This document shows, piece after piece, positions 47,867-63,057 of a stretch of 64,000 nucleotides of DNA; position 1 is the stretch's first letter; each line of letters opens with the position of its first letter. The notes under the pieces are model-generated. The model was not told the origin of the DNA and did not search any database. It saw only the letters and a list, made by a program, of their open reading frames with translations. Where the stretch lies: contig CAVTXF010000002.1 in NCBI GenBank assembly GCA_963738595.1, positions 215,168 to 279,167 of the forward strand, read 5' to 3'. Both the position numbers and the translations under genes were made by a program. The DNA comes from an uncultured Alphaproteobacteria bacterium (GTDB lineage: Bacteria > Pseudomonadota > Alphaproteobacteria > Rhizobiales > Aestuariivirgaceae).

Positions 47867-47881
47867 GGGGCGCGGTGCTGT

Positions 47882-49084: not shown

Positions 49085-49563
49085 GTGTTCTTGCCCTTGA
49101 TTTCTTCCAGCAGTCTCGTTTCTTCCGGTGACAATGGTTCCGGTACGGCAGGCGAAGATGCCGACCTGCGGCGCATATAGACCAGGAAGACTGACAAAGC
49201 GCTGGCAAAAACCAGAAGCGGACCCAGCCACAGCAGTACGGTGCTTGGTTGCAGTGGCGGTTTCAACAGAACGTAGTTGCCAAACCTGTTGACGATGAAT
49301 TCCTGAACCTGCGCGTCAGTCTCGCCCAATTGCAGGCGCTCGCGCACGATCAGGCGCAGGTCGCGCGCGAGGCCGGCGTTGGAATCATCAATTGACTGGT
49401 TTTGGCAAACAAGGCAGCGCAGGTCGGCACTGATGGCGCGCGCGCGCGCTTCAAGCGCTGGGTCTTGCAGCATTTCCTGCGGCTCTACAGCCATGGCATG
49501 AACTGCCAGGTACATGAAGGAGAAGGCTGTGAAAAACAACCGTGTCATCATTGTCGCCTTCAT
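49081..49563 (-). CDS. ccmH: Cytochrome c maturation protein CcmH/CycL
   Basis: LRCLVCQNQSIDDSNA.LARDLR, RFGNYVLLKPP, LLWLGP; start 49563 (ATGA overlap) or 49551. Confidence 0.93.
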   Translation of the reverse strand: MKATMMTRLFFTAFSFMYLAVHAMAVEPQEMLQDPALEARARAISADLRCLVCQNQSIDDSNAGLARDLRLIVRERLQLGETDAQVQEFIVNRFGNYVLLKPPLQPSTVLLWLGPLLVFASALSVFLVYMRRRSASSPAVPEPLSPEETRLLEEIKGKNT

Positions 49564-51533
49564 GCCGCGGCACCTGCGAGCCTGACGCGATGCGGTGCGC
49601 CAATACGGAAACGCCGGTCGGTGAGCGAGACAAAGCCGCCCAACGCCATGGTGAAACCGCCGATCCACAGGAAGGGGGCGAGTGGGTGATAATAGAGGCG
49701 CACCGTCCACTTGCCCGACTGATCGGCCTCGCCAAGTGCAATGTAGAGATTCGAAATGATGTTGGTCCGGATTGCCGTTTGCGTTACCTGATTTTGCTGC
49801 AACGGGAAAAAGCGACGTTCTGCCACCATGGTGGCGAGCGACTTACCGTCGAGCGTCACATCGAAGGTTCCCTGCTCTGCTTCATAGTTGGGGCCATTGG
49901 CCTGGGTGATGCCCCGCAATGTGACCATGTAACCCGCAATCTCGGCTGTTTCGCCCGGGGCCATGGACAGAATGTTCTCGCGTTGCCAGGTTGATACAAC
50001 AGTAATTGCACCCACAAGGAGGCCAAGCCCGAGATGGGCGAGGACCATGCCAAAGACGCTGCGCGGTGTATTGGCGAGAAGGCTCACGGATGAATCAAGT
50101 GAAGTCTGGGCGAGCTTGATGCGGGTGAACAATGCCCAGACTGCGCCCAAGATGAGCCACAGCGACAGCGCGATACCGCCCGCGGTGAAGATGTAGGACA
50201 GGTGGCCGAATGCAAGGACCGCCAGAAATGCCGCCAGTGCAATCACCAAGGGTATGCGCAGCTTCTGCAACGCAGGCACCACTTCGTCGCGCTTCCATTT
50301 CAGCATCGGCCCAACTGACAATGTGAGCAGCAGCAGAATGAAGATCGGGACGAAGGTGCGATTGTAGAAGGGCGGGCCAACGGAGATCTTGTCGTTGCCC
50401 ATGAGGTCGATCAGCAAGGGATAGAATGTGCCGATGAAGACGGTTGCAGTTGCGGTCACAAGCAGCACATTGTTGAGGGACAATCCGCCTTCGCGGCTGA
50501 CGAGGGAGAATGGCACGCCGGATTTCACCTGCGGGATGCGCAAGGCATAGAGCAGCAATGCGCCGCCCGTTGCCACCGAGAGAATGGCGAGAATGAACAC
50601 GCCGCGTTCAGGGTCCTGGGCAAATGCATGGACACTTGTGAGGACGCCTGAGCGAACGACAAAGGTGCCGATGAGACTCAACGAGAATGTGAGAATGGCG
50701 AGCAGGATGGTCCAGCTCACCAGAGCGTGACGACGCTCGACCACGATGGCCGAGTGCAGCAGGGCCGTGCCTGCGAGCCATGGCATAAGCGACACGTTTT
50801 CAACCGGATCCCAGAACCACCAACCGCCCCAGCCAAGAATATAATAGGCCCAGAAGCTGCCGAGCGTGATGCCCATTGTGAGGAAACACCAGGCAGCCAG
50901 AACCCAGGGCCTGACCCAGCGGGCCCAAGCAGGATCCACTTTTCCCTCGATGAGAGCTGCTACCGCGAAAGAAAAGGTGACGGAAAATCCGACGTAACCG
51001 AGATAGAGACAGGGCGGGTGAATGGCGAGGCCCGGATCCTGCAAAAGCGGATTCATGCCATTGCCTTCAGCCGGTGCGAAGGCAAGGCGCGCAAAGGGAT
51101 TCGAAGTGAAAATGACAAAGGCCAAAAAAGCTGAGGCAATCATACCCTGCACTGCAAGGACACGCGCCTTCAACTGATGCGGAAGTGCTGATCCGAAAAC
51201 CGCGATGAGACATGAGAACAATGTCAACACCAGAACCCACAGCAACATCGAACCTTCATGGTTGGCCCAAACACCGGTAAATTTATAGACAAGTGGTTTG
51301 GTTGTCTGTGAATGAGTCGCAACCAAGGCCAGTGAAAAATCTGAGCTCACGAATCCTGCTGTCAGAAGTGCAAATGCGGCAGCGACGCACACAAAGGCCG
51401 CAATGGCGCCATAATTCCCTAACGCCATCAGGCTTTCATCGCGCCTGTTTGCGCCGATGATTGGTGCTACTGATTGCACCAAGCACACTGAAAAACCTAA
51501 CAAAAGCGCAAACAGTCCAAGCTCTGCAATCAT
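49560..51533 (-). CDS. ccmF: Cytochrome c heme lyase CcmF/CycK
   Basis: WANHEGSMLLW, NPLLQDPGLAIHPP, WWD motif WGGWWFWDPVEN.SLMPW, VRSGVLTSVHAFA, SVGPPFYN; start at ATG 51533. Confidence 0.97.
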   Translation of the reverse strand: MIAELGLFALLLGFSVCLVQSVAPIIGANRRDESLMALGNYGAIAAFVCVAAAFALLTAGFVSSDFSLALVATHSQTTKPLVYKFTGVWANHEGSMLLWVLVLTLFSCLIAVFGSALPHQLKARVLAVQGMIASAFLAFVIFTSNPFARLAFAPAEGNGMNPLLQDPGLAIHPPCLYLGYVGFSVTFSFAVAALIEGKVDPAWARWVRPWVLAAWCFLTMGITLGSFWAYYILGWGGWWFWDPVENVSLMPWLAGTALLHSAIVVERRHALVSWTILLAILTFSLSLIGTFVVRSGVLTSVHAFAQDPERGVFILAILSVATGGALLLYALRIPQVKSGVPFSLVSREGGLSLNNVLLVTATATVFIGTFYPLLIDLMGNDKISVGPPFYNRTFVPIFILLLLTLSVGPMLKWKRDEVVPALQKLRIPLVIALAAFLAVLAFGHLSYIFTAGGIALSLWLILGAVWALFTRIKLAQTSLDSSVSLLANTPRSVFGMVLAHLGLGLLVGAITVVSTWQRENILSMAPGETAEIAGYMVTLRGITQANGPNYEAEQGTFDVTLDGKSLATMVAERRFFPLQQNQVTQTAIRTNIISNLYIALGEADQSGKWTVRLYYHPLAPFLWIGGFTMALGGFVSLTDRRFRIGAPHRVRLAGAAA

Positions 51534-51706
51534 GTTTTTTCCATTCATCCCAGGTTATCAGGCTGCCACAAAATTGACTAAAGTTTTATCGGAGAAAAAG
51601 CAAAAAAACATCGATTTTCTCCACATTTGTTAGCTGATTGTCAGACTAAGGTATGTAAGGACGGCAGCAAGAAGAAAAGTTCCTTTTAACAGCCGGGGGC
51701 ATTCTG

Positions 51707-52687
51707 ATGAGTACTGCGTTATCGCGCAAGTCTGCGCGTGAACTTGTTGCATTTGATCCAGCCGTAAATCCGGCTTCACGACCGCCACAGCGCAGTGCAC
51801 CGCGTCCCGGCTCCAAGCCTGCGCATGTTGCTGCACCGTCTGCGCCGCGCGAAGGTCTTGGAACATATTTCATCCTTATCACATCGTTGCTGGCGATTGC
51901 CTATGGCTATTCGACACGCAATGCCGATGTGTTTGTTCCCTATGAAGGGGCCGGCTACTGGATTGGTGTTGCCGGCGGCAGCGGCATGCTGCTGCAGCTT
52001 GCCTATTCATCGGTCAAGCGGCTGAAATTTTTCCGGCGTCTTGCGGCTTCACGCATGCTCTTCCAGATGCATATGGTGCTCGGTCTCGCAGCACCCATCC
52101 TCATTCTCTATCACGCCAATTTTTCTTGGGGGGCAACGAACAGCAATGTGGCACTTGGCACCATGCTTGCCGTGGTTGCCAGCGGGCTGATTGGCCGCAT
52201 CGTTTACCGGCACATCCACTTTGGTCTGCACGGTGCCAAGGCCAACGCGAACCAGATGTTTGAACATGCCCGACACCTTTTGGGCGACATTGAAGAAGAT
52301 GTCGGCGGTTCGCAGGGTCAAATTGCGGCACGGCTTGCGAATTTCGCCGCGTTGCCGATCTTCCACGAGCGGTCATTGTCGCGGCAATTCGTTTCGGCGC
52401 TGGTCATACCTTTCAAAGTGCGGCTTGCCAGACTAAAGTTCAATTCAATGATTCGGCGAACCGTTGCTGAAAATGCGGTCAGAAACGGTTGGTCTAACGC
52501 AGAGCTGGCACGCCACAGGAAACAAGCACAACTGCATGTCAGGGATTTTCTCCAGTCTTTCAGCGCTGCCTCGCAGCTCGCCTTCTGGGAACGGTTGTTT
52601 TCAGTCTGGCACCTGCTGCATGTGCCCTTGTTCTACCTGCTGCTGGTCAGTGGCGTGGCTCACGTCATCGCAGTCCACTGGTACTGA
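51707..52687 (+). CDS. Inner-membrane bis-heme-b protein of the ferric-reductase-like transmembrane superfamily
   Basis: About 5 hydrophobic helices; two H-x13-H pairs (H-MVLGLAAPILILY-H and H-VPLFYLLLVSGVA-H); long helical soluble insert; first gene of the cytochrome operon. Confidence 0.72.
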   Translation: MSTALSRKSARELVAFDPAVNPASRPPQRSAPRPGSKPAHVAAPSAPREGLGTYFILITSLLAIAYGYSTRNADVFVPYEGAGYWIGVAGGSGMLLQLAYSSVKRLKFFRRLAASRMLFQMHMVLGLAAPILILYHANFSWGATNSNVALGTMLAVVASGLIGRIVYRHIHFGLHGAKANANQMFEHARHLLGDIEEDVGGSQGQIAARLANFAALPIFHERSLSRQFVSALVIPFKVRLARLKFNSMIRRTVAENAVRNGWSNAELARHRKQAQLHVRDFLQSFSAASQLAFWERLFSVWHLLHVPLFYLLLVSGVAHVIAVHWY

Positions 52688-52696
52688 GGATGTTCC

Positions 52697-54070
52697 GTGA
52701 TCAGGAGGCTGGCCCAATTCCAAATTGGCCTGGCCTTCCTGGTGGGTCTGGTGTTTCTTACAGGTCCCCTGTGGGCGCAAAACACAGTCGAAAACCTGGT
52801 TCAGCCTGACCTGCTGGCGACAGCACACAAGAAACTCGAAGAAGACTGCAGTACCTGCCACATGGCCTTCAAGAAGGCTGCGCAAAGCTCACTCTGTGCC
52901 GATTGCCACAAGCCGGTGAAACAAGACATTGCCAAGGGCGAGGGCTTCCACGGCAAGAATCCCCTGGTGAAAAAGTCCGAGTGTGCCAACTGTCACGCTG
53001 AACACAAGGGTCGCGACTTCAAACAGGACCGGTTCACCAGCATTACCTTCAACCATACTGAAACGGATTACCCGCTTGATGGCAAGCATGCCCAGGTGGA
53101 TTGCAATGGTTGCCATTTGCCGGGCAAGAAGTTCAGCGCAGCACCACATGCCTGTTTCGACTGTCACGAGAAGGACCAGCCACATCGCGGCAATCTGGGA
53201 AACAAGTGCGAGTCCTGCCACAACACCAAAGACTGGAAAAAGACCGCGATCTTTGACCACAGCAAGACAGACTTTCCGCTGAATGGCGCGCATGCCAAGG
53301 CGACATGCTTTGGTTGCCATGTCGGAGAAGTCTACAAGGGTGTCTCCAAAACATGTTTTGGCTGCCACGCGATGCAAGATGTGCATGATGCGCGGTTTGG
53401 CGAAAAATGTGAGAGCTGCCACACTGAAAAAGACTGGAAGCACAAGGCTTTTGATCATGGCAAGCTGACGCGCTTTGCCCTGACAGGGGCCCATGCCAAG
53501 GCCGCATGTGCCGACTGTCATGGCAAGAACCTCACATCAAAACTGCCGATGGGCTGCTTTGATTGCCACAAGAAGCAGGATGTCCACCTGGGCCAGCTTG
53601 GACAAAATTGCGAGAGCTGCCACAAGACTTCTGCCTGGCGGCAGGATGTGACATTCGACCATGCGCTCACGGCGTTTCCGCTGTCTGGTTTGCACGTCGC
53701 AGTGGCCTGCGAAAGTTGCCATGCGAGCCCAGCCTATAAAGATGCCAAGACAGATTGCTTCTCGTGCCACAAGAAGGACGACGTGCATGAAGGACGGCTC
53801 ACGGCAAAGTGTGAAAGTTGTCATTCGGCCTCCGGCTGGACAAAGGTTGCCTTCAACCACGATACCGGAACGAAATTCCCGCTGACGGGGGCGCACAAAA
53901 AGCTTGGTTGCCATGGCTGCCACAAAGAGAAAAACGTGGTTTCGGCCAGCCTTCCGGTTGCGTGTTATGCCTGCCACAAGGCCCAGGACATACATCGCGG
54001 GGCGTTTGGCCAGAACTGCGCCGAATGTCATTCAACGGTCAGTTTCAAAGGCGCAATTATCCGTAAATGA
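52697..54070 (+). CDS. Periplasmic multiheme cytochrome c, 18 CxxCH
   Basis: Hand count of 18 CxxCH; Sec signal ending PLWA-Q; GAGGA RBS, GTG start; five ~68-aa triheme repeats. Confidence 0.93.
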   Translation: MIRRLAQFQIGLAFLVGLVFLTGPLWAQNTVENLVQPDLLATAHKKLEEDCSTCHMAFKKAAQSSLCADCHKPVKQDIAKGEGFHGKNPLVKKSECANCHAEHKGRDFKQDRFTSITFNHTETDYPLDGKHAQVDCNGCHLPGKKFSAAPHACFDCHEKDQPHRGNLGNKCESCHNTKDWKKTAIFDHSKTDFPLNGAHAKATCFGCHVGEVYKGVSKTCFGCHAMQDVHDARFGEKCESCHTEKDWKHKAFDHGKLTRFALTGAHAKAACADCHGKNLTSKLPMGCFDCHKKQDVHLGQLGQNCESCHKTSAWRQDVTFDHALTAFPLSGLHVAVACESCHASPAYKDAKTDCFSCHKKDDVHEGRLTAKCESCHSASGWTKVAFNHDTGTKFPLTGAHKKLGCHGCHKEKNVVSASLPVACYACHKAQDIHRGAFGQNCAECHSTVSFKGAIIRK

Positions 54071-54211
54071 GTCATTAATCCGAATCATTTCACTAGACTT
54101 TACGAATGAATCCTGACTTTAGTTAACGCGCCAAAAGCATGGGGAAAACGGCACTCCGGCTGAAACTGACAAAGCGCTGACAGGGTTCGCGCCGCGATCG
54201 GAGAGGAAGGA

Positions 54212-54268
54212 ATGCACAGAGGAAAAAGTCCAGTGGTGCCGTTGTCGGAAGAGTCGCTGCTTTCGTGA
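54212..54268 (+). other. Possible 18-codon upstream ORF (MHRGKSPVVPLSEESLLS) whose stop overlaps the GTG of the 17-heme gene
   Basis: Purine-rich GGAGAGGAAGG just before ATG 54212; TGA 54266-54268 overlaps GTG 54265-54267. Confidence 0.3.
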
Positions 54269-55632
54269 ATGGTGCGCTGTCATATTCCACAATCGCCAAT
54301 GCCGCCTTGCGTGGCATTGTGGCGTTGTTTGTGCTTCTCGTGCTGGCTTGCGGGTCTGCTTCCGCAGAAACAGTGATCGACAAGAATTTCGACCACTCCA
54401 GGACCAACTTTCCGCTGACCGGCAAGCATATCGATGTACGGTGCGAAACATGCCATGCGGGAGCCAAGTTCAAAGGTACTCCTACTGCCTGCTTTGCCTG
54501 CCATGACGGCAAGACAGCGTCGGGCAAGAGCCGCAATCATCCACCGACCACGAACCAGTGCCTGGACTGCCATGACACGGCACGCTGGAAAAATGTAAAG
54601 GTCGATCACAGCAAGATCTCGACCAACTGCTTCAGTTGCCATGACGGAAAGATTTCAACCGGCAAAAGCAAGACACATATTCGCAGCAGCGCAACATGCG
54701 AAGACTGCCACCAGGTGAGCACGTGGAGTGTCGCAAAATTTGACCATGCGATGACGACACTTCCCTGCGCCAGCTGCCACAATGGCGTGCAGGCCATCGG
54801 CAAGGGTCCGAAACATGTTCCTTCATCCAACAATTGCCTGTCCTGCCACACGACAGCGAAGTGGGAACTCAGCGGCTTTGATCATGCCGGCATTACCGGA
54901 TCGTGCTTTGGATGCCATAACGGGCGGGTCGCGACAGGCAAAACGCGCAATCATGTGAAGACCACCAATACCTGCGAAGACTGCCATTCGGTGCGGGTGT
55001 GGATTCCGACGACACGCTTTGACCATGCGTCAGCTCTCGGCAGCTGTGTGAGCTGCCACAGCGGCAAGGTGAAATCCTCTGAAGGGACGATCCAGGGAAA
55101 GTCGCGCAGCCACTTCAAGACAACCGATGCCTGTGAAACCTGTCATAGTGTGACAACCTGGACCACCTCGCGCTTTGACCATGCGGAAGCGCTGGGGACG
55201 TGTTTTTCGTGCCACGACAACCGGCATCCGCCAGCAGGTGGCAAGGGTCGCCGGCATTTTGCAACGTCGAATGCCTGCGAGGCCTGCCATGTTGTTTCAA
55301 CGTGGATCACTTCACGTTTCGATCACGCCGAGGCCAGCGGAACATGCTACTCGTGCCACGACAACAACCATCCGCCAGCCGGTGGCAAGGGCCGCAGGCA
55401 CTTTGCCACGTCGAATGTGTGCGAGGCCTGCCATGTCAATTCGACCTGGACGACCTCGCGCTTTGATCACGCGGAGTCGACCGGGACCTGCCTGTCGTGC
55501 CATGACAACCGGCATCCGCCAGCCACCGGAAAAGGGCGCAGGCACGTTGACACGGTGAAACCCTGCGATATATGCCACCTCAGCACTGCTGACTGGACGA
55601 TCCTCGATCCCAACTGGCCGCAGCTGCAATGA
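54265..55632 (+). CDS. Exported multiheme cytochrome c, 17 CxxCH, possibly a lipoprotein
   Basis: Hand count of 17 CxxCH; hydrophobic signal with VLAC (lipobox-like) and ASA-E (SPase I-like); one triheme plus seven diheme modules. Confidence 0.92.
   Translation: MNGALSYSTIANAALRGIVALFVLLVLACGSASAETVIDKNFDHSRTNFPLTGKHIDVRCETCHAGAKFKGTPTACFACHDGKTASGKSRNHPPTTNQCLDCHDTARWKNVKVDHSKISTNCFSCHDGKISTGKSKTHIRSSATCEDCHQVSTWSVAKFDHAMTTLPCASCHNGVQAIGKGPKHVPSSNNCLSCHTTAKWELSGFDHAGITGSCFGCHNGRVATGKTRNHVKTTNTCEDCHSVRVWIPTTRFDHASALGSCVSCHSGKVKSSEGTIQGKSRSHFKTTDACETCHSVTTWTTSRFDHAEALGTCFSCHDNRHPPAGGKGRRHFATSNACEACHVVSTWITSRFDHAEASGTCYSCHDNNHPPAGGKGRRHFATSNVCEACHVNSTWTTSRFDHAESTGTCLSCHDNRHPPATGKGRRHVDTVKPCDICHLSTADWTILDPNWPQLQ
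55170..55600 (+). repeat. Three tandem 144-nt (48-aa) diheme repeats within the 17-heme gene
   Basis: GCCA(C/T)GACAA recurs at 55211, 55355 and 55499; unit FDHAE..GTC.SCHDN.HPPA.GKGRRHF.TS..CEACH...W.TSR. Confidence 0.88.
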
Positions 55633-57833
55633 AGTATCGCGCATTCAAACAGTTGCACGGATTCAGCGCCAGCGTGATCGCATGCACGGTCGCCGCTTCG
55701 AGCCAGACCAGTATCGCGCAATCCGTGCCCCAGAAACTGATGACGTCCCTGCAAGTGACCGAAGATGGAAATTGCGAGCAAATTCACCTTCGGCTGAATG
55801 AAGCGGCGAACTTTGCCGGAGCGACACAAAGCGGAACGTCGGCCATCGTCGAAATTCCCATCGAGATCCTCGCGGGTGATACTCCGACACTGCCGACGGC
55901 AGAAATTCTGCCCGTCCCGGCCGACAATGCGGCTGGTGTGAAGACAATCGGATTTTTGCGAAATGCCGGGCAAACGCCCGCGATTGCCATCCGGTTTAAC
56001 GCAGCCGTCAACTATCGCATCATCATGGACGCTGAAACGCGCCATATCAGGGTTGATGTATCCAAGTCCGGCAGCACAGCGGCCTGCAACACAGGCCAGG
56101 CTGCAGTCGGCAGCATCACGCAACAGCCGCCAGCAGGGCCACTGGCACAAGCCAGTACCGCGATTGCGGCGGGACTCCATGAAGAGGCGCTGAAACTTCT
56201 GGCTCCCCTCATCGTGTCACTTGCCGGAAACGACAAGCAGAAGGCGATGGAACTCAATGGTCTGGCACTTGAGCGTCTCGGTCGGCTTGATGATGCCAAG
56301 TTGCAGTATGAAGCAACTCTCGCGCTTTTTCCCTCCCATGAAAGCAGCGGTCGCATCCGGCAACGCCTCGCTGATGTCGTTGATGCGCTGAACGCAGCAG
56401 CAATTGATGATGCAGCCAAGGGCGACCTGCCGCGCGAACTGCAGGGCGGTGACAAGGCCAACGAGAGTCTTGCCGACAACAGCGGGGCGCTGCGGGGGAC
56501 AATTGCACCCGAGAGCACGTTGCGCAGCATGCGCAAGATCAAGGACCCGGTTGTTGATCCTGACGCCTGGACCTGGACCAAATATGGCCTGGCCGGACAA
56601 GCCTATTACCGTGACGACCAGTTGGGTGATGACCATGAGCTTGTTGAAAGCGAAGTGATCAGCAATGTCAGCGTTGCCTTCAAGGGTGAAAACCAAAAAC
56701 GTGTTGTTTCCCTGCGGGTGGATGCGCTGAACCGGCAAGACCTTGGCATCAATGGCAACGAACGCAAGAACAGTGTCGCGACGTTCTATGCCGACGTTCT
56801 CGACAAGCCTTCCGGTGCTTCGGCGCGCATCGGCCGGCAGGTGCGCAATGATGGTGGCATCTTCGGGCGGTTCGACGGCGTTTCGATGACGTACAAAGCG
56901 AACAAGGCCCTTGACCTGTTGATTGCCGCAGGTTCGCCGGTTTATGACCGTGGCGCGCTTCCCTTTGAAGATGAGATGTATTTTTTCAGCGCCAGCGGGG
57001 TTTATGAATTCCCGGACAGCCCGTGGAGCAGCGAAGTCTACGTGATCGAGCAACGGGCTGGCAGCATCGTTGACCGGCGGGCGATTGGCAGCGAACTGAG
57101 ATATGAAACCGATGACCTTTCGGGCTACACGGGCATTGATTTTGATTTCAACCAGAACAAGGTCAGCAGCGCATTCATTTCAGCAAACTGGCAAGCGAAT
57201 GACCGGCTGGCGCTGAACGCGTCCCTGGACTTCCGGACGCAGCCATTCTTGCTGACATCCAACGCGCTCTCAGGGCAAGAACTGGACAGGCTGCCGAGCC
57301 TGGTCAACCTGCTTGGTGAAAAGCAGGTGCTGATCCTGGCCAAAGACCGGACCGCTGACGCGGTGACGGCAGCACTTGGCATCAGTTATACATTCTCTGA
57401 CACATGGCAAATGTCATTCGATGCCTTGTGGTCAGATGTGTCGGGGATGCCAGCTTCCGGCGGCATTGATGAAATCCCCGAACTTGCCAATGACATTTAT
57501 GTGGGGGCCTATCTCAATGGTACCAGCATTCTCAAGACTGGCGATACATTGGGACTTGGCCTGACCTACAGTCATGGTGAAAGGCGCTCGAAGATCGGCG
57601 CTGACATTTCCTGGCGCTTCCCGGTTGACGAGGCATTGCGCCTTACCACGCGGCTCAGGACCACTGTGACCACGCGCAACGGGGACGCCATCTACAGCAT
57701 CACGCCCAGCATTGGTGCGCGTTACCGGATCGACAAGCACTGGCTGCTGGAGTCGGAGCTTGGAGTGACCCTGCAAAACGGCGAAATGCCTGCAGAACTG
57801 CAGGCATTTGCCGGATACAGATATGAATTCTGA
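55629..57833 (+). CDS. Outer-membrane beta-barrel protein with an N-terminal periplasmic beta domain and TPRs (putative cytochrome-associated porin)
   Basis: ATGA overlap with the 17-heme gene; TPR (KAMELNGLALERLGRLDDAKLQYEATL); ~420-aa C-terminal region of alternating amphipathic strands ending AGYRYEF (terminal-Phe BAM signature). Confidence 0.8.
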   Translation: MKYRAFKQLHGFSASVIACTVAASSQTSIAQSVPQKLMTSLQVTEDGNCEQIHLRLNEAANFAGATQSGTSAIVEIPIEILAGDTPTLPTAEILPVPADNAAGVKTIGFLRNAGQTPAIAIRFNAAVNYRIIMDAETRHIRVDVSKSGSTAACNTGQAAVGSITQQPPAGPLAQASTAIAAGLHEEALKLLAPLIVSLAGNDKQKAMELNGLALERLGRLDDAKLQYEATLALFPSHESSGRIRQRLADVVDALNAAAIDDAAKGDLPRELQGGDKANESLADNSGALRGTIAPESTLRSMRKIKDPVVDPDAWTWTKYGLAGQAYYRDDQLGDDHELVESEVISNVSVAFKGENQKRVVSLRVDALNRQDLGINGNERKNSVATFYADVLDKPSGASARIGRQVRNDGGIFGRFDGVSMTYKANKALDLLIAAGSPVYDRGALPFEDEMYFFSASGVYEFPDSPWSSEVYVIEQRAGSIVDRRAIGSELRYETDDLSGYTGIDFDFNQNKVSSAFISANWQANDRLALNASLDFRTQPFLLTSNALSGQELDRLPSLVNLLGEKQVLILAKDRTADAVTAALGISYTFSDTWQMSFDALWSDVSGMPASGGIDEIPELANDIYVGAYLNGTSILKTGDTLGLGLTYSHGERRSKIGADISWRFPVDEALRLTTRLRTTVTTRNGDAIYSITPSIGARYRIDKHWLLESELGVTLQNGEMPAELQAFAGYRYEF

Positions 57834-57839: not shown

Positions 57840-60800
57840 TTACAGAATGAAATCGACCGCTCTCAATTCGTGGTGACCTGCCAGCTCAATCTGGAAATCA
57901 GCCTTGGCATCGCCGTCAACGTCAACTGCAACAATCGTGTTGTCACCCGAGAAGCGATAGTCAACGTCTCCGGCCCGGCCCGAAAGCCCATGCCAGCCGA
58001 TGAACTTGAAGGCGTTGTTGCCGCTGGCAAAGCTGTTGGCGTCAATCGATGACAGATCAATCCTGTCGGTTCCCTGGTTGAAATCCATGACCACATCGCG
58101 TGATCCTGCAGCGGTGCCGGAGTCCTTCAGGGAATTGAAGTCGAAGACGTCCTTGCCGCCACCGCCCCGCATCGTGTCCACCCCGGTTCCGCCTGCGAGA
58201 CGGTTGGCAGATTCGTTGCCGATCATGATGTTGTCAAGCGAATTGCCGATGCCGTTAATTGCCTTGGTGCCGCTCAGTTGCACGCTTTCGACATTTGCAC
58301 CGAGGCGGAAATTGACCAAGGTCTTGACCAGATCGCGGTCGGCATTGGCGGTTTCGATAACCTGGTCGCTGGACCCGTCGACGATATAGATATCGGTGCC
58401 AGAGCCACCATAGAGCTTGTCAGCGCCGAGGCCACCATTCAGCACGTCATTGCCGCCGCCGCCGCTCAGCATGTCATCACTCTGGCCGCCGAATATCTTG
58501 TTGGCGCCCTTGTTGCCGACGATGGAATTTGCCAGGGCGTTGCCTGTTGCGTCGAGTGCTGCAGATCCCGTGAGCATGAGATTTTCGACATAGGCACCCA
58601 GCGTGTAGCTGATTGAGGATCTTACGGTGTCAGTTCCACCGTTTGCAATCTCAACAGCCCGGTCGCCAGAGTCATCGACGTAGTAAGTATCATTGCCGTC
58701 GCCGCCGTAGAGCATGTCGGCACCAGCGGCACCATTGAGCGAATCATCACCCGCGAGGCCGTAGATCGTGTTGTTGTCGGCATCGCCATTCAGCGTATCG
58801 GAATTGCCCGTGCCATTGTTGGTCGTTCCACCGCCAGTTCCACCACCTGTGCCGCCGCCTGTTCCACCACCTGTTCCTGCGGTCAGATTTGCCAAGGTGA
58901 CAGTGCCGTCGGAGAATTTGAAATTCTCGACGTTGGTGACCGTTTCGACGCCGTCGCGGCCTGTCGTCAGATCGGTAATCCTGACCGTCGTGGCATTGAT
59001 GGAAGTGACCTGATAGTTGGCCTTTGCGCCCGTAAGCACTAGCGTATCGTCACCTGCTCCGCCATCAACCGCATCGTCGCCACCGAGACCGGACAGGGTG
59101 TTGCTGGCGCTGTTGCCCGTGAGGCGGTTGGCAAGGCTATTGCCCGTGCCATTCGTTGCGCTTGTCCCGGTGAGTTCAAGGTTTTCAACGTTTGCGCCGA
59201 GGATATAGGCAATCGCAGACCTGACAGTGTCAGTTCCTTCGTTTGCCTGTTCCGTGATCGTGTTGCCGCCTGTGTTGATGACATAGATATCATCGCCCAG
59301 ACCGCCGACCAATGTGTCGGCACCCACAGCCGCCGTCAGCGTATCATTGCCGGCAAGGCCGTTGATGGTGTTGTTCATTGAATTGCCGGTCAGCGTGTCG
59401 GCACTTGCGGTGCCGTTGATCACGACAGGGTCACCGGGAACAACAACCGGAATGAAGCTTGCGACGGTATAGGAGGTGCCGCCGATTTCGATTTTGGTGA
59501 TGCCCGAGAGCGTGTCGGTGACGCCGCCAATCGTAACGGTGGCGTGGGTGGCGTCCGTTGCGGTGATGGAGTAGTTCCCAACGGCACCCGTGTAGACGGC
59601 TGTATCAGTACCGCCGCCGCCCGTCAGTGTGTTGGTGGCGCTGTTGCCGGTGAGACGGTTGTCCAACGTGTTGCCGGTTCCATTGCTTGCACCCGAACCG
59701 GTGAGTTCAAGGTTTTCGACGTTTGCGCCGAGGCTATAGGTGATTGCCGACCTGACAGTGTCGGTGCCTTCGTTTGCCTGTTCCGTGATGGTGTTGCCGC
59801 CCGCGTTGATGACATAGATATCATCGCCCAGACCGCCGACCAATGTGTCGGCACCCAAAGCTGCCGTCAGTGTATCATTGCCGCCGAGGCCATTGATGGT
59901 GTTGTTCTGCGAATTGCCAGTCAGCGTGTCGGCACCCGCGGTGCCATTGATGACGACGGGATCGGCCGGGACAACAACCGGAATGAAACTTGCGACGGTA
60001 TAGGAGGTGCCGCCGATTTCGATGGTGGTGATGCCCGAGAGCGTGTCGGTGACGCCGCCAATCGTAACGGTTGCGTGGGTGGCGTCCGTTGCGGTGATGG
60101 AATAGTTCCCCACAGCACCCGTGTAGACGGCCGTATCGGTGCCGCCGCCGCCAGTCAACATGTTGCTGGCGCTGTTGCCGGTGATGCGGTTGTTGAGTGC
60201 GTTGCCGGTGCCATTGATCGCGGTGGACCCGGTGAGGACCAGGTTTTCAACATTGGCTGTCAGGGTGTAGCTGACTGCTGCGTTGACAGTGTCGGTGCCT
60301 TCATTGGCATTTTCGACGACGACATGGCCGCCGGCATCATTGATGTTAAAGGTATCATTGCCCTGACCACCATTCATCGTGTCGGTGCCGCCGGAGGCGG
60401 TGATCGTGTCGTTGCCGGCCAGACCATTGATGGTGTTGCTGACGGAGTTGCCCGTCAATGTGTCAGCGCCTGCGGTGCCATCGATTTGGACCGGCGTGAC
60501 TGGAGGTGGAGGAGGAGGTGGTGGCGGTGGTGGAGCAACCGTGACCAGCGTGCCGATGGCAAAGGTGCCGTCAGTGAATTTCACGTTTTCGATGTTGAGC
60601 AACTGGTCAGTGCCGTCAGCACCCGTGTTATCAACGATCTGGTACGTGGTGCCACTTACTAATGTGACAGTGTAATTGGCTTTTGCGCCCTGCATCACAA
60701 CAGTGTCTGTGCCTGCCGCGCCGTCGATCGTGTCATTGCCACCCAAACCAAAAAGCCATGCATCGGATGCAGTCGTACCTGTAATCGTATTTGCAGCGGC

Positions 60801-61064
60801 AGTGCCCAAGTTCAGTGTGATGTCAGCATATTTGAACACTTCGAAATTCTTGAACTGCATTGTCCCTGCGCCGCTTGCGCTGGTTGCCACCAGTGTGCCA
60901 TCGTTGAGGGCACTGAGTGTGAAGTAGCGCGCAGCTGCCGAGCGGGTGTCGGTACAAGAAATCGTATCTGTACCGGCAAGACCATCATAAATATTATTCC
61001 AAGTGAGACCCTGCTTCAGCACGGAGTTGGTGTCATTACCTGTGGTATGATTGATCAGTGCCAT
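57840..61064 (-). CDS. Large RTX/Ca2+-binding repeat protein, probable type I secretion substrate (1074 aa, no catalytic domain seen)
   Basis: Start reassigned to ATG 61064 (GGAGA RBS); many GGxGxDxL nonapeptides, VENL.LTG beta-roll repeats, serralysin-like C-terminus D.IDLSSIDAN...DFIL; no Sec signal. Confidence 0.9.
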   Translation of the reverse strand: MALINHTTGNDTNSVLKQGLTWNNIYDGLAGTDTISCTDTRSAAARYFTLSALNDGTLVATSASGAGTMQFKNFEVFKYADITLNLGTAAANTITGTTASDAWLFGLGGNDTIDGAAGTDTVVMQGAKANYTVTLVSGTTYQIVDNTGADGTDQLLNIENVKFTDGTFAIGTLVTVAPPPPPPPPPPPVTPVQIDGTAGADTLTGNSVSNTINGLAGNDTITASGGTDTMNGGQGNDTFNINDAGGHVVVENANEGTDTVNAAVSYTLTANVENLVLTGSTAINGTGNALNNRITGNSASNMLTGGGGTDTAVYTGAVGNYSITATDATHATVTIGGVTDTLSGITTIEIGGTSYTVASFIPVVVPADPVVINGTAGADTLTGNSQNNTINGLGGNDTLTAALGADTLVGGLGDDIYVINAGGNTITEQANEGTDTVRSAITYSLGANVENLELTGSGASNGTGNTLDNRLTGNSATNTLTGGGGTDTAVYTGAVGNYSITATDATHATVTIGGVTDTLSGITKIEIGGTSYTVASFIPVVVPGDPVVINGTASADTLTGNSMNNTINGLAGNDTLTAAVGADTLVGGLGDDIYVINTGGNTITEQANEGTDTVRSAIAYILGANVENLELTGTSATNGTGNSLANRLTGNSASNTLSGLGGDDAVDGGAGDDTLVLTGAKANYQVTSINATTVRITDLTTGRDGVETVTNVENFKFSDGTVTLANLTAGTGGGTGGGTGGGTGGGTTNNGTGNSDTLNGDADNNTIYGLAGDDSLNGAAGADMLYGGDGNDTYYVDDSGDRAVEIANGGTDTVRSSISYTLGAYVENLMLTGSAALDATGNALANSIVGNKGANKIFGGQSDDMLSGGGGNDVLNGGLGADKLYGGSGTDIYIVDGSSDQVIETANADRDLVKTLVNFRLGANVESVQLSGTKAINGIGNSLDNIMIGNESANRLAGGTGVDTMRGGGGKDVFDFNSLKDSGTAAGSRDVVMDFNQGTDRIDLSSIDANSFASGNNAFKFIGWHGLSGRAGDVDYRFSGDNTIVAVDVDGDAKADFQIELAGHHELRAVDFIL
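58820..58880 (-). repeat. (GGGT)n linker inside the RTX protein
   Basis: Translation AGTGGGTGGGTGGGTGGGTT. Confidence 0.8.
59100..60180 (-). repeat. Tandem duplication with 531-nt (177-aa) period inside the RTX gene
   Basis: GTGTAGACGG at 59590 and 60121; AGGAGGTGCC at 59471 and 60002; protein copies near-identical; boundaries approximate. Confidence 0.9.
60501..60533 (-). repeat. Eleven consecutive Pro codons (poly-proline linker)
   Basis: Minus-strand CCN x11, mixed CCA/CCT/CCG. Confidence 0.9.
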
Positions 61065-61193
61065 TTCGCTTCTCCAGACGGACAGAATTTCAAATAGGGC
61101 CGACCAATGATGTTTGCCCGGCACGGGTTCAGAAAAATTTTCTCGGTTTTGATTGTTTGAGGCGGCACGCCGCCCCAAACTTACATGTCATTC

Positions 61194-62006
61194 TCAGGCG
61201 ATGAAATCGACGCTGGTCAGCGTCTTCAAGCCCAGCAAGTCAATGGTGAAATCGACAATCTTGTCGCCGTTCACGTCACCTGAAATGATCGTGTGTCCGG
61301 AGGCCTGACTGTAATGCAGTTCACCGGCGATCTTGTGGAACACAGTGCCCTTGGTAATGGTGCCAAACTTGTGCGAGGCATTTGTCGGATTGATCGTGGA
61401 CAGGTCGATCTTGTCCACACCATGGGTGAAATCGGTGATTTGGTCACGGGTCGAGGACGTTTTCCCCGTTTCCGTGATGGCGTTGAAATCAAAGATGTCC
61501 TTGTCGGCACCACCGGTCAAGCGATCTGCGCCTGCACCGCCGATCAGTTTGTCAGCTCCCGCTCCACCCATCAGCCAGTCACCGCCACCCAGACCCGAAA
61601 TCGTATCAGCGCCACCAAGTCCAAAAAGGAACTTGTCAGCAAGCTTGCCGCCAGTCACCTTGTCCGCTGCAGCTGTGCCGAGGTTGATGCTCAAATCTAC
61701 GATCGTCGAGTGGGTCTTGTACCACGTGAATTTTTCAACATTTTTGAACTTTGTGATGCTGCCACTGGACACAGTCATCGTCATCACGCCGTCGGCAGTC
61801 GCCGTCAAGGTGAAGTATTTTCCGTAATTATTGTCAGATGTAACAGTGTCTATGCCGCCAAGTCCATCAACAGTCTGTCCCTTGAGATTGGCGAACCCGG
61901 ATGTGTCATCTCCTGGAATAACGTAGCCGGGTGATCCATTCAGGTCATATGACGAACTAATAAACATATCGAGCTTATCGCTTCCAGCAGTCAGTAAAAC
62001 AGTCAT
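61194..62006 (-). CDS. Small RTX/Ca2+-binding protein, paralog of the large RTX protein, probable type I secretion substrate
   Basis: AGGAGAG RBS 12 nt after the apbE stop; GGAGADKL repeats; C-terminus D.IDLS...GDVNGD...DFIA; N-terminal domain aligns with that of 57840-61064. Confidence 0.85.
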   Translation of the reverse strand: MTVLLTAGSDKLDMFISSSYDLNGSPGYVIPGDDTSGFANLKGQTVDGLGGIDTVTSDNNYGKYFTLTATADGVMTMTVSSGSITKFKNVEKFTWYKTHSTIVDLSINLGTAAADKVTGGKLADKFLFGLGGADTISGLGGGDWLMGGAGADKLIGGAGADRLTGGADKDIFDFNAITETGKTSSTRDQITDFTHGVDKIDLSTINPTNASHKFGTITKGTVFHKIAGELHYSQASGHTIISGDVNGDKIVDFTIDLLGLKTLTSVDFIA

Positions 62007-62018
62007 TCAACTCTCTCC

Positions 62019-62924
62019 TTAGGTCGGTGGTTTATTCAAAAATTTCTGGCCGTGAATATCGACAAGTAGATATCCGCAACCTTCCTCAACTAAAAATTTC
62101 TCTGCTTTATTTTCCTTTAACATTGCAACCGTGGAATAAACGCCGGCCTTTAGCGTAGATGCCTGACTTATGCTGACAGAAGACCAACAATTCACGGGCC
62201 ATCCGGTTTTGGGATTAATAATATGACAATATCTGCGGCCATTTTGCATAAAGTACTTCACAGCATCGCCACTGGTGGCCAGTCCGCCGTTTGAAACCGG
62301 GATGGTCGCGATGATGGCCCCTTCTTCGCGGGGATTGGATACGCCGATCAGCCAATCCTCCCCGCCAAGCTGAGGACCCAGCGCACAAATATCGCCGCCG
62401 AGATTGACGTAACCGGAGCCTATACCGTGTTCTTTCAATTCCCTGCCAGCGCGGTCGGCTGCATATTCCTTGCCGAAACCGCCAAAGTCGATCTCCATTC
62501 CCGCTTCCCGCAAGCGTACTGAATCGTCTTTTATTTCAAGCTTGTTCCAGTCCACCAGTTGCAAAAATCCTGCAATGGTTTCATCAGAAGGAATGACAGG
62601 TTCGGCAAAATTCCAGGCCTTGCGCAACACACCCGAGGTGATGTCAAACAAGCCATCACTTTGAGTGTAAATCTGGTTGGCAAATCTGAAGAGACTTATT
62701 GTTTCAGGGTCACATTCAATCCATTCGCCATTTCCGGCGCGGCTGTTGATGCGATAGATAATGCTGGAATCGTCAAAGCGGTAACGCGAATACTTGTCCT
62801 GTATGCGCAGAACTTCCCTCGCAGCTGCTTCCATTGCAGTTGCTGCGTGCTGATGGCCATCTGTTACAATGACAATTTCATTTTCGCCACCCATGGCAAA
62901 AAATGTTGTTCGGAAATTCTGCAT
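62019..62924 (-). CDS. apbE: FAD:protein FMN transferase (ApbE family) with no signal peptide
   Basis: FFAMGG, FDITSG, DFGGFGKEYAAD, NLGGD, ATSGD, HIINPKTGWP; an in-frame TAG two codons upstream of the ATG rules out an N-terminal extension. Confidence 0.88.
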   Translation of the reverse strand: MQNFRTTFFAMGGENEIVIVTDGHQHAATAMEAAAREVLRIQDKYSRYRFDDSSIIYRINSRAGNGEWIECDPETISLFRFANQIYTQSDGLFDITSGVLRKAWNFAEPVIPSDETIAGFLQLVDWNKLEIKDDSVRLREAGMEIDFGGFGKEYAADRAGRELKEHGIGSGYVNLGGDICALGPQLGGEDWLIGVSNPREEGAIIATIPVSNGGLATSGDAVKYFMQNGRRYCHIINPKTGWPVNCWSSVSISQASTLKAGVYSTVAMLKENKAEKFLVEEGCGYLLVDIHGQKFLNKPPT

Positions 62925-62961: not shown

Positions 62962-63057
62962 GAACTGGTTGCCAATTGTGGCATCCTTATGTCTGACCAC
63001 TAAGGTATAGATATTATTTCCAAATATAAATTGTCACTAAAAGACGATTCAACTGTG

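What the first reader, a model, noticed from the sequence alone, without database searches (positions are those of the whole stretch)
57840..62924. Signal-less ApbE in one operon with RTX (type I-secreted) proteins: possible cytoplasmic flavinylation of secreted surface proteins beside a porin-cytochrome system
Seen: apbE starts directly at the mature-domain motif (MQNFRTTFFAMGG) and an in-frame TAG just upstream excludes a signal peptide. The small RTX gene begins 12 nt after its stop with a strong RBS, and the large RTX gene follows on the same strand. Known: ApbE/Ftp enzymes are normally exported, often as lipoproteins, and attach FMN to Thr/Ser in a D-x2-[ST]-G-A-[ST] motif of extracytosolic redox proteins. 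Type I substrates bypass the periplasm, so only a cytoplasmic transferase could modify them. Inference: this ApbE may flavinylate the RTX proteins before export, giving surface flavoproteins that exchange electrons with the adjacent 17-heme cytochrome. Caveats: neither protein has a canonical motif in the shared N-terminal domain, only an aligned Ser/Gly-rich turn (DGTLVATSASGA versus DGVMTMTVSSGS). An isolated SGAS lies in one repeat copy of the large protein. The usual C-terminal Mg-ligand Asp (ADALAT) reads AGVYST here. No T1SS genes are in the window.
Basis: partly seen in the sequence, partly recalled or inferred. Interest (0 to 1): 0.8.

Follow-up and report, generated by a model that had tools for sequence, protein, structure and literature searches.

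The report
Cytoplasmic flavin-attaching enzyme beside secreted RTX proteins
An enzyme that attaches flavin to proteins, here without any export signal, is consistently encoded next to secreted calcium-binding (RTX) proteins whose shared front domain carries a textbook flavin-attachment site in many other bacteria; that site has decayed in this genome, so flavin attachment is likely for the family but unproven here.

Summary
apbE (62924..62019, minus strand) has no signal peptide. Two RTX genes follow it on the same strand and share an N-terminal domain (NTD) that Pfam does not describe.

The ApbE belongs to a large signal-less subfamily. All 88 members examined have Gly at the usual Mg-ligand Asp position. 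Most sit in the published DUF4266-DUF3570-ApbE flavinylation system.

The ApbE-NTD pairing is conserved in very different genomic contexts, and it holds in both directions of search.

That test is positive for the family: Burkholderiales NTDs carry D-[ST]-[VIL]-S-G-A-S at the flagged turn, in a predicted exposed hairpin loop. In the window's own clade the loop is cut to a Ser-rich four-residue turn, with no Asp and no Ser/Thr at the acceptor position.

This genome has only this one ApbE. I detected none of five known substrate families (FMN_bind, DUF2271, DUF3570, NqrB/RnfD, Flavodoxin_4); FMN_red was not searched. It has two complete type I secretion systems elsewhere.

Verdict: a new probable ApbE substrate class, modified in the cytoplasm and exported by a non-Sec route. 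I put that at about 0.75 for the family and about 0.4 for these two proteins.

The scan reported the same NTD motif on another genome (e1-2138732). New here is the DUF3570-less form coupled to a porin-cytochrome cluster.

The parts
62019..62924 (-). apbE: signal-less FAD:protein FMN transferase of the DUF3570-type subfamily (301 aa)
   Evidence: PF02424 at 238 bits. In-frame TAG upstream. No hydrophobic N-terminus. His234, Thr265 and all other subfamily-invariant residues are present; Gly261 replaces the Mg-ligand Asp, as in all 88 relatives.
63023..63052 (-). sigma-70-like promoter match in the 134-nt gap upstream of apbE
   Evidence: TTGAAT-18-TATATT, 9 of 12 matches. This is a consensus match only; the region has no more such sites than shuffled sequence.
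61194..62006 (-). small RTX protein (270 aa): NTD, RTX repeats, serralysin-type C-terminal domain ending D-F-I-A
   Evidence: HemolysinCabind and Peptidase_M10_C. Starts 12 nt after apbE, behind a strong RBS. NTD profile hit at 1.9e-28.
61662..62006 (-). NTD of the small RTX protein (residues 1-115), an all-beta RTX-like domain with no Pfam family
   Evidence: AlphaFold model with pLDDT 77.7. No Pfam match. Alignments A1 and A5.
61752..61775 (-). Ser-rich hairpin turn TVSSGSIT, aligned with the canonical flavinylation loop of relatives
   Evidence: The turn S80-S83 lies between predicted strands 74-79 and 84-88.
57840..61064 (-). large RTX protein (1074 aa from the ATG at 61064): NTD, poly-Pro linker, duplicated RTX/Ig-like units, C-terminal D-F-I-L
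   Evidence: HemolysinCabind at 1.5e-53, 10 stretches. RBS GGAGAAG before the ATG at 61064. NTD profile hit at 2.4e-28.
60861..60884 (-). Ser/Gly hairpin turn TSASGAGT of the large protein's NTD
45226..51548 (-). ccmF-ccmH-ccmI, membrane-anchored Fe-S flavoprotein, exported ankyrin/Sel1 protein. In relatives this operon runs directly into apbE-RTX.
   Evidence: Pfam. Gene orders in L007, L008 and L034.
51707..57833 (+). porin-cytochrome cluster: multi-pass membrane protein, 18-heme and 17-heme cytochromes, 734-aa barrel protein. It converges on the RTX operon.
   Evidence: The same porin and cytochrome lie beside apbE-RTX in L003, L006 and L034.

Best explanation
apbE, the small RTX gene and the large RTX gene form one functional unit. 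It consists of a cytoplasmic FMN transferase and its conserved partner proteins.

The partners are type I-secreted RTX proteins. Each begins with an undescribed RTX-like beta domain (NTD) of about 90-115 aa.

In the wider family this domain carries the canonical ApbE motif D-[ST]-[VIL]-S-G-A-S. The motif sits in an exposed eight-residue hairpin loop.

Proposed mechanism (inferred):
1. ApbE recognises a short linear motif, so it can attach FMN to the still-unfolded polypeptide in the cytoplasm.
2. A PrtD-type T1SS encoded elsewhere then exports the modified chain directly to the outside.
3. Calcium folds the chain there, giving a surface or extracellular protein with a tethered flavin.
4. In this lineage that protein works with the neighbouring ccm / Fe-S flavoprotein / porin-cytochrome electron conduit.

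In the window's own clade the loop is shortened to a four-residue Ser-rich turn, without the Asp and without Ser/Thr at the canonical acceptor position. It is therefore open whether these two proteins are still modified. Candidate sites are S80, S81, S83 or T85 in the small protein and S62, S64 or T68 in the large one.

Shown: absence of a signal, conserved linkage, the canonical motif in relatives, intact enzyme residues, T1SS present in the genome.
Inferred: the FMN transfer itself, export of the modified chain, and any redox role.

The confidence of 0.45 is for the window's own proteins being the ApbE substrate. For the NTD family as a whole I put it at about 0.75.
For: 1. Conserved adjacency. 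ApbE homologs at 87, 81, 64, 62, 59 and 54% identity are each followed directly by an NTD-RTX gene, although the upstream genes differ. All 10 members of the DUF3570-less ApbE clade show this, and they form one side of a branch (SH-aLRT 88).

2. Reverse test. Three of five NTD proteins picked from a profile search of 1.84 billion representatives have this ApbE immediately upstream.

3. Motif. All 17 NTDs next to Burkholderiales ApbEs carry D..SGAS at the aligned turn, and so do about 55 of the top 150 representatives. The motif occurs only in the N-terminal copy. It matches the D-x-[IV]-S-G-A-S-P site of DUF3570 encoded by the same operons. DUF3570 is an experimentally flavinylated substrate (PMC8238504).

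4. Structure. In the AlphaFold model (pLDDT 89.9) the motif spans the end of strand 52-56 and the loop 57-64.

5. Enzyme. Every subfamily-invariant residue is kept in the window's ApbE. Only three conservative clade-specific changes were found.

6. Orphan status. This is the sole ApbE in a 99.4%-complete genome. No FMN_bind, DUF2271, DUF3570, DUF4266, NqrB/RnfD or Flavodoxin_4 was detected. In this genome the NTD occurs only in these two genes.

7. Export. Neither RTX protein has a signal peptide. Both have RTX repeats and a D-hydrophobic C-terminus, and the genome has two complete T1SS.

8. Tolerance. ApbE accepts short motifs in tags and loops, and replacing the Asp has only a minor effect (PMC12052999).
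Against: - The window's NTDs lack the canonical motif. By the N-side register the acceptor position is Ile or Gly.
- Removing the acceptor hydroxyl abolishes flavinylation in tested substrates.
- The His residues that flank the loop in most canonical NTDs are absent here.
- The predicted fold is an RTX-like beta roll with no flavin pocket.
- Two of five reverse look-ups found no adjacent ApbE.
- No T1SS gene is linked to the operon.
- Passage of an FMN-bearing chain through a T1SS has not been demonstrated (no paper links flavinylation with type I secretion).
- Another signal-less RTX protein in this genome (P0274) has an invariant TGAT and could be the real substrate.
Confidence: 0.45

Rival explanations
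1. Relic adjacency. The NTD was once flavinylated but has lost the site in this clade. The ApbE is kept for another substrate encoded elsewhere. The leading candidate is P0274 (own genome, contig C13:227588-228703), a second signal-less RTX protein. A weaker candidate is the 734-aa barrel protein of the porin-cytochrome cluster.
For: A genome-wide scan for D..[ST]GA[ST] gave 5 hits in 1.09 million residues. Two lie in P0274, an RTX protein ending D-D-F-V-L with no signal peptide. Its TGAT is invariant in 9 homologs at 52-70% identity. The barrel protein has DKPSGAS. The window's NTD loops lack the acceptor position.
Against: - The tight apbE-NTD coupling (12-nt or overlapping junctions) persists across the whole DUF3570-less clade down to 54% ApbE identity. 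That is hard to explain if the partner no longer matters.
- The P0274 motifs sit in a beta-propeller blade turn of the type 'Y-x-[VIL]-D-x-x-T-G'. Such turns produce the motif easily, and the second P0274 motif is not conserved.
- The barrel protein's motif is not conserved in three homologs.
- About 6 hits are expected by chance, so 5 is not an excess.
Confidence: 0.25
2. In this clade ApbE has a role other than modifying the RTX proteins. It could act as an FAD-binding or FAD-hydrolysing (Ftp-like) protein, or as a holding partner for the unfolded RTX chains before secretion.
For: Some Ftp/ApbE proteins are FAD pyrophosphatases rather than transferases (PMC4767422, listed). One Mg ligand is replaced by Gly. 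The NTD motif is degenerate here.
Against: The same Gly occurs in the Chlorobium and Burkholderiales members that sit beside DUF3570, and cognate ApbE flavinylates DUF3570 (PMC8238504). The catalytic His and all other invariant residues are kept. No chaperone role is known for ApbE.
Confidence: 0.1
3. The ApbE reaches the periplasm by an unrecognised route and modifies Sec-exported proteins there. The RTX genes are merely neighbours.
For: Its closest relatives serve DUF3570, an exported outer-membrane protein, within otherwise periplasmic operons (DUF4266, thioredoxin-like, DsbD).
Against: None of the 88 relatives with a reliably called start has a signal peptide, a Tat motif or a lipobox; they begin about 10 residues before the conserved A-M-G. 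The window's gene has an in-frame stop 6 nt upstream. This genome lacks DUF3570 and DUF4266.
Confidence: 0.07
4. The gene order is coincidental and has no functional meaning.
For: RTX genes are common in such genomes. The order-level survey found the pair only in this genome, so local co-occurrence statistics rest on n = 1.
Against: The pairing recurs across Alpha-, Beta- and Gammaproteobacteria, Chlorobiota and Verrucomicrobiota, and a specific N-terminal domain carries the ApbE motif.
Confidence: 0.02

Closest known systems
DUF3570 / 'DsbD-type' flavinylation system (ApbE, DUF3570, DUF4266, thioredoxin-like, with or without DsbD; Meheust et al. 2021, eLife, PMC8238504)
   Same: The window's ApbE belongs to the same subfamily (47-57% identity; same invariant residues, including Gly at the Mg-ligand Asp position; no signal peptide). 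In 23 of 69 such loci an NTD protein sits in the operon, 17 with the canonical motif.
   Different: This genome and its ApbE clade have no DUF3570, DUF4266, thioredoxin-like gene or DsbD beside apbE. The partners are only NTD-RTX proteins, with ccm, Fe-S flavoprotein, ankyrin and porin-cytochrome genes nearby. The 2021 survey discarded ApbE and FMN-binding-domain genes without a predicted signal peptide, and in the text and files I could search it does not name RTX proteins as substrates.
Cytoplasmic ApbE of Klebsiella pneumoniae, which flavinylates a soluble fumarate reductase (reviewed in PMC12052999)
   Same: An ApbE without a signal peptide, acting in the cytoplasm on a partner encoded nearby.
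   Different: The Klebsiella substrate has an FMN_bind domain and stays in the cytoplasm. Here the candidate substrates are secreted RTX proteins with a beta-roll-like domain, and the genome has no FMN_bind domain.
Serralysin/lipase-type T1SS substrates (PrtDEF / AprDEF / LipBCD class)
   Same: GGxGxD nonapeptide repeats, a Peptidase_M10_C-type C-terminal domain, no N-terminal signal, and a C-terminal Asp followed by hydrophobic residues. The genome encodes PrtD- and HlyD-type components.
   Different: There is no protease or lipase domain; an undescribed N-terminal domain linked to ApbE takes its place. The T1SS genes are not adjacent.
Engineered 'flavin-tag' (seven-residue ApbE motif placed at termini or in surface loops; PMC12052999)
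   Same: A short linear motif in an exposed loop of an otherwise unrelated fold is enough for ApbE. The canonical NTDs look like a natural version of this.
   Different: This is natural and conserved, and it is coupled to secretion. The window's own loops are non-canonical.
Porin-cytochrome conduits (MtrAB/PioAB/PCC-type) that use flavins as cofactors or shuttles (own knowledge, not tested here)
   Same: An adjacent cluster encodes a barrel protein and 18- and 17-heme cytochromes. This gives a plausible partner for a surface flavoprotein.
   Different: Known systems bind or secrete free flavins. A covalently tethered flavin on a T1SS protein has not been described.

Membership tests
ApbE/Ftp FAD:protein FMN transferase (PF02424) | ApbE domain above Pfam's gathering score | tested here: met
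   238.2 bits against a cut-off of 25.6. Matches solved ApbEs at 2e-38 to 2e-19.
ApbE/Ftp FAD:protein FMN transferase (PF02424) | Conserved His in the Y-x-H-I-x-x-P segment, taken to be the catalytic general base (His257 of V. cholerae ApbE) | tested here: met
   His234 in R-Y-C-H-I-I-N-P aligns with the His of solved ApbEs and is invariant in 88 of 88 relatives. Its equivalence to V. cholerae His257 is my inference from the motif.
ApbE/Ftp FAD:protein FMN transferase (PF02424) | Asp and Thr side-chain Mg ligands in the C-terminal A-D-x-x-S-T segment | tested here: not met
   Thr265 is present, but the Asp position is Gly261. The same holds in all 88 subfamily members, including those beside DUF3570. 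It is therefore a subfamily variant rather than a sign of inactivation.
ApbE/Ftp FAD:protein FMN transferase (PF02424) | N-terminal signal peptide or lipobox (typical but not universal) | tested here: not met
   In-frame stop 6 nt upstream. No hydrophobic N-terminus. The whole subfamily starts at the mature domain.
ApbE/Ftp FAD:protein FMN transferase (PF02424) | Mg-dependent transfer of FMN from FAD to Ser/Thr of a target | not testable with these tools
   Needs co-expression or an in vitro assay.
DUF3570-type ('DsbD system') ApbE clusters | ApbE of this sequence subfamily | tested here: met
   47-57% identity to ApbEs adjacent to DUF3570. They fall in one tree with the window's clade as one side of a branch.
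DUF3570-type ('DsbD system') ApbE clusters | DUF3570 and DUF4266 genes in the cluster or genome | tested here: not met
   Profiles built from 73 DUF3570 and 64 DUF4266 sequences gave no hit at E<=1 in the 99.4%-complete genome. Both are absent from all 10 loci of the window's clade.
Known ApbE substrates (motif D-x-x-[ST]-G-A-[ST]) | Canonical motif in the window's RTX proteins | tested here: not met
   The NTD turns read TVSSGSIT and TSASGAGT. There is no canonical motif anywhere in either protein. One isolated SGAS lies in a repeat of the large protein.
Known ApbE substrates (motif D-x-x-[ST]-G-A-[ST]) | Canonical motif at the aligned position in homologs of the domain | tested here: met
   All 17 Burkholderiales NTDs beside ApbE have it, as do about 55 of the top 150 profile hits. 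It lies in an exposed hairpin loop of the model.
Known ApbE substrates (motif D-x-x-[ST]-G-A-[ST]) | Covalent phosphoester-linked FMN on the protein | not testable with these tools
   Needs in-gel fluorescence and mass spectrometry.
Type I secretion (RTX) substrates | Nonapeptide GGxGxD repeats and an uncleaved C-terminal signal, with no N-terminal signal | tested here: met
   HemolysinCabind and Peptidase_M10_C. C-termini D-F-I-A and D-F-I-L. No hydrophobic N-terminus.
Type I secretion (RTX) substrates | Cognate ABC transporter and membrane-fusion protein | tested here: met
   Two PrtD (701 and 664 bits) plus HlyD (358 and 353 bits) pairs score above the NCBIfam cut-offs, on contigs C7 and C16. 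They are not linked to the operon, so which one serves these proteins is unknown.

The most novel reading that the evidence does not exclude
The RTX proteins receive FMN in the cytoplasm, at the Ser-rich hairpin of their N-terminal domain, from a signal-less ApbE. A type I system exports them. On the cell surface they act as covalently tethered flavin relays between the 18- and 17-heme porin-cytochrome conduit and extracellular electron donors or acceptors. This would be a protein-bound equivalent of secreted flavin shuttles, and the first post-translationally flavinylated T1SS cargo.
Probability: 0.2. Interest if true: 0.9.

Novelty: new variant of a known kind. Interest (0 to 1): 0.68.

Why it matters
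ApbE flavinylation is treated as a periplasmic or cell-wall process. The main genomic survey removed ApbE and FMN-binding genes that lack a predicted signal peptide.

Three consequences would follow if this reading holds:
- A large signal-less ApbE subfamily modifying proteins before export would mean covalent flavin can be loaded in the cytoplasm and carried out on unfolded chains. The route would be T1SS for the NTD proteins and, by implication, Sec for DUF3570.
- It would add a seventh substrate class, with more than 1000 representative clusters.
- It would identify a candidate extracellular flavoprotein family tied to electron-conduit genes.

The idea is cheap to test: co-express two genes in E. 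coli and look for a fluorescent band.

For this window specifically, the decayed motif makes it a natural test of how far ApbE specificity stretches.

Tried and rejected
- **Barrel protein as substrate.** The 734-aa barrel protein of the cytochrome cluster has a canonical DKPSGAS. The G-A is not conserved in three homologs, and profile comparison shows no relation to DUF3570 (probability 0.9%). I treat it as a probable chance motif.
- **Word-indexed search with the NTD alone.** It found only the query. The full HMMER scan was needed.
- **Fold search.** It gave RTX beta-roll matches only (best E 0.05 for the window's NTD, 3.3e-05 for the canonical type). No flavoprotein fold appeared.
- **Clade-specific ApbE residues.** I looked for changes that might signal altered specificity. 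Only three conservative changes turned up.
- **Order-level co-occurrence.** Of 151 genomes, only this one has the pair, so the survey carries no statistical weight.
- **Supplementary tables of PMC8238504.** The stored files are cut and hold no DUF3570 rows, so I could not read the authors' signal-peptide call for the Chlorobium ApbE.
- **Alignment register of the shortened loop.** It cannot be settled from sequence. Anchored on the upstream D-G, the conserved S-G matches the first S-G of SGAS. Anchored on the downstream N-x-E, the conserved Ser/Thr falls where the acceptor Ser lies.

Full report
**Observation**

Three genes lie head to tail on the minus strand.
- apbE runs 62924..62019 (301 aa; PF02424, E 1.5e-70).
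- The small RTX gene runs 62006..61194 (270 aa).
- The large RTX gene is an ORF from 61178 to 57840. Its likely start is the ATG at 61064, behind GGAGAAG, giving 1074 aa.

An in-frame TAG lies two codons before the apbE ATG. The first 45 residues of ApbE have no hydrophobic stretch, unlike the exported neighbours.

The small RTX gene starts 12 nt after the apbE stop, behind AAGGAGAGAG. A sigma-70-like match lies in the 134-nt gap upstream of apbE. No terminator-like site lies on the minus strand inside the unit. These are consensus matches only.

Both RTX proteins lack signal peptides, carry nonapeptide repeats, and end in Asp followed by hydrophobic residues. Minor corrections are the start of the large gene and the presence of two neighbouring cytochromes, with 18 and 17 CxxCH motifs.

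**What kind of ApbE this is**

A search of 5.8 billion proteins returned thousands of ApbEs. The 120 best hits listed are about 285-330 aa long. The 18 I aligned begin roughly ten residues before the conserved A-M-G of the mature domain, apart from short, variable and non-hydrophobic extensions in a few.

Against solved structures, the usual Mg-ligand Asp (ADALST, ADGLST, GDGLST) aligns with Gly261. The partner Thr (T265) and the conserved His (H234), which I take to be the catalytic base, are kept.

In 88 subfamily sequences Gly261 is invariant. So are D94, T96, G98, D146, K152, E153, D157, N174, D178, S218, G219 and H234. T217, D220 and T265 are nearly invariant. The AGVYST reading is thus a family trait, not damage.

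A scan of one genome per species found at least 570 relatives. They occur in Chlorobiaceae, many Burkholderiales, Hyphomicrobium, Gammaproteobacteria and a Chthoniobacteraceae MAG.

At 46-54% identity these relatives sit in DUF4266-DUF3570-ApbE operons, with a thioredoxin-like gene and often DsbD. This is the 'DsbD system' of Meheust et al. 2021. In that study Chlorobium luteolum DUF3570 was shown to be flavinylated by its cognate ApbE at two [ST]GA[ST] sites (PMC8238504).

That survey removed ApbE and FMN-binding-domain genes without a predicted signal peptide. Cytoplasmic ApbEs are known from Klebsiella, where the target is a cytoplasmic FMN_bind fumarate reductase (PMC12052999).

**The conserved partner**

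ApbE homologs at 87, 81, 64, 62, 59 and 54% identity are each followed directly by an RTX gene. The upstream genes differ: a sugar ABC operon, rlmL, ykuD, or an ankyrin gene.

The two window proteins and these neighbours share an N-terminal domain (NTD). D-G, a conserved T, an [ST]-G pair and N-x-E are invariant or nearly so.

A profile of the domain hits only these two genes in the window's genome. In 33 of 87 ApbE-centred loci it hits a gene beside apbE, nearly always the one directly downstream. These loci include Undibacterium, Inhella, Ideonella, Rhodoferax and Aquabacterium.

Pfam has no family for the domain.

A full HMMER scan of 1.84 billion representatives found 1297 proteins at E<=1e-3 and 286 at E<=1e-10. 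They fall into two groups. Some have the domain once, at the very N-terminus of 250-600-aa proteins. Others are giant RTX proteins with many internal copies.

Starting from five of these hits, without reference to ApbE, three have the subfamily ApbE immediately upstream. One of the three lies between ApbE and the thioredoxin-like gene of a DUF3570 operon. Two of the five do not have an adjacent ApbE.

- All 17 NTDs found beside Burkholderiales ApbEs carry it.
- About 55 of the top 150 representatives carry it, always in the N-terminal copy. The internal repeats of giant RTX proteins almost never have it.
- It is the same style of site as the invariant D-x-[IV]-S-G-A-S-P of DUF3570 in the same operons.

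In an AlphaFold model of the Undibacterium pigrum NTD (pLDDT 89.9), the Asp and the next residue end a strand (52-56). S-G-A-S lies in an eight-residue hairpin loop (57-64). The fold matches RTX-like beta rolls (best 9cse, E 3.3e-05) and no flavoprotein.

These proteins start directly at the domain, so they also lack signal peptides.

At family level the NTD is therefore a strong candidate for a new ApbE substrate. An earlier follow-up in this scan reached the same conclusion on another genome (e1-2138732). My result was obtained before I read that note.

**The window's own proteins**

The ApbEs without a DUF3570 neighbour form one side of a branch (10 rows, SH-aLRT 88). The group includes Hyphomicrobium, a Chthoniobacteraceae MAG and the window.

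In this clade the NTD loop is shortened. The model of the small protein (pLDDT 77.7) has strands 74-79 and 84-88 joined by the four-residue turn S80-S81-G82-S83.

The turns read T-V-S-S-G-S-I-T and T-S-A-S-G-A-G-T. Three canonical features are missing:
- The Asp is replaced by Thr.
- The acceptor position, by the N-side register, is Ile (small) or Gly (large).
- The His residues that flank the loop in most canonical members are absent.

A few clade members keep SGAT, SGAS, SGGS or SGSS.

The register is ambiguous. Counted back from the conserved N-x-E, the invariant Ser/Thr (S81) lies 7-9 residues upstream. The canonical acceptor lies 8 residues upstream. On that register the invariant T78 would take the -3 hydroxyl position.

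Published mutagenesis says loss of the Asp matters little. G-to-A or A-to-V changes halve modification. Loss of the acceptor hydroxyl abolishes it.

Whether these two proteins are flavinylated cannot be decided from sequence. I put it near 0.4.

**Why the enzyme still points at them**

- The genome (99.4% complete) has this one ApbE only.
- No FMN_bind, DUF2271, NqrB/RnfD or Flavodoxin_4 was found.
- No DUF3570 or DUF4266 was found with profiles built here. The Pfam DUF3570 search had a silent control.
- FMN_red (PF03358), the sixth known substrate family, was not searched.
- The enzyme keeps every invariant residue. It differs from the rest of the subfamily at only three conservative positions.
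- The only neighbour conserved through the clade is the NTD-RTX gene.

A genome-wide scan for the canonical motif found five hits, about the chance number. Two are in P0274, a second signal-less RTX protein with a propeller-like N-domain. Its TGAT is invariant in nine homologs, but the motif sits in a blade turn that often reads D-x-x-T-G. One hit is in the barrel protein and is not conserved. P0274 is the main alternative substrate. Notably, it too would need cytoplasmic modification and T1SS export.

**Export and context**

Two complete PrtD/HlyD sets above the NCBIfam cut-offs lie on other contigs.

In relatives the order is ccmF-ccmH-ccmI, Fe-S flavoprotein, ankyrin protein, apbE, NTD-RTX (L007, L008). 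In L034 this block lies next to the membrane protein, both cytochromes and the barrel. In L003 and L006 the barrel and 17-heme genes converge on the RTX gene, as they do here.

By my count, eight of ten informative loci of the clade show such links. L004 and L112 do not.

The Fe-S flavoprotein has an N-terminal anchor followed by basic residues, so its bulk probably faces the cytoplasm. The ankyrin protein has a signal peptide.

This supports a shared function with an envelope electron conduit. It does not show electron exchange.

Among 151 genomes of the order, including two congeners, only this genome has the subfamily ApbE and a strong NTD. The unit looks patchily distributed, possibly mobile.

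**Verdict**

The linkage and the motif hold at family level. Flavinylation of the window's own proteins and the link to the cytochrome remain inference.
- Relative to the literature I could search, no paper joins flavinylation with type I secretion or ApbE with RTX proteins. The published substrate classes are FMN_bind, NqrB/RnfD, DUF2271, DUF3570, Flavodoxin_4 and FMN_red.
- I class it as a new variant of a known kind.

Noticed in passing
own genome, contig C13:227588-228703 (locus L115:3589-4704, protein P0274): A second signal-less RTX protein (371 aa, ends D-D-F-V-L) with a propeller-like N-domain. It carries two canonical motifs, DPQTGAT and DAVTGAS. The TGAT is invariant in nine homologs; the second site is not conserved. 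It is a possible alternative substrate of the sole ApbE.
   Followed up: partly
window 55629-57833 (+), residues 392-398: The 734-aa barrel protein of the porin-cytochrome cluster has a canonical DKPSGAS. The last Ser is invariant, but the G-A is not conserved in three homologs. There is no detectable relation to DUF3570.
   Followed up: yes
loci L027-L104 (ApbE relatives from genome contigs): The whole DUF3570-associated ApbE subfamily lacks a signal peptide and has Gly at the Mg-ligand Asp position. Its validated substrate DUF3570 does have a signal peptide. This implies either FMN loading before Sec export or an unknown export route for the enzyme.
   Followed up: partly
locus L118:7001-8314 (protein P0151): A 437-aa protein with three tandem NTD copies, each carrying SGAS. 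It is a candidate multiply flavinylated protein. No ApbE lies within 7 kb, and the gene sits beside a block of small phage-like genes.
   Followed up: partly
window 57840-61064 (-): The large RTX protein contains two nearly identical units of about 180 aa (recent internal duplication), a run of 12 Pro after the first module, and a G-G-T-rich linker. Weak extra NTD-like copies without any S-G-A-S lie at about residues 150-213 and 682-765 of the 1115-aa stop-to-stop frame (roughly 110-173 and 642-725 counted from the ATG at 61064).
   Followed up: no
window 61065-61193 (-): The 129-nt spacer between the two RTX genes holds a G+C-rich hairpin (GGGGCGGC-GTG-CCGCCTC) with no T-run after it. It might lower expression of the large gene relative to the small one.
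   Followed up: no
loci L053, L040, L074, L095, L119 and representatives P0131-P0273: Canonical-motif NTD proteins of Burkholderiales have few or no RTX repeats, and often Big_5 and DUF4214 domains. They end in T-G-[LI]-x-[YF]-x or E-Y-x-P-[FV] rather than Asp plus hydrophobic residues. Their export route is unclear.
   Followed up: no
own genome versus 150 genomes of the same order: The subfamily ApbE and the strong NTD matches occur only in this genome. Two congeneric genomes lack both, which suggests patchy, possibly horizontal, distribution of the unit.
   Followed up: partly
window 45226-51548 (-) compared with L007, L008, L034: In relatives, apbE-RTX is the 3' end of the ccmFHI / Fe-S flavoprotein / ankyrin operon. 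In this window the pair has been moved to the far side of the porin-cytochrome cluster, next to a sugar ABC-transporter operon.
   Followed up: partly
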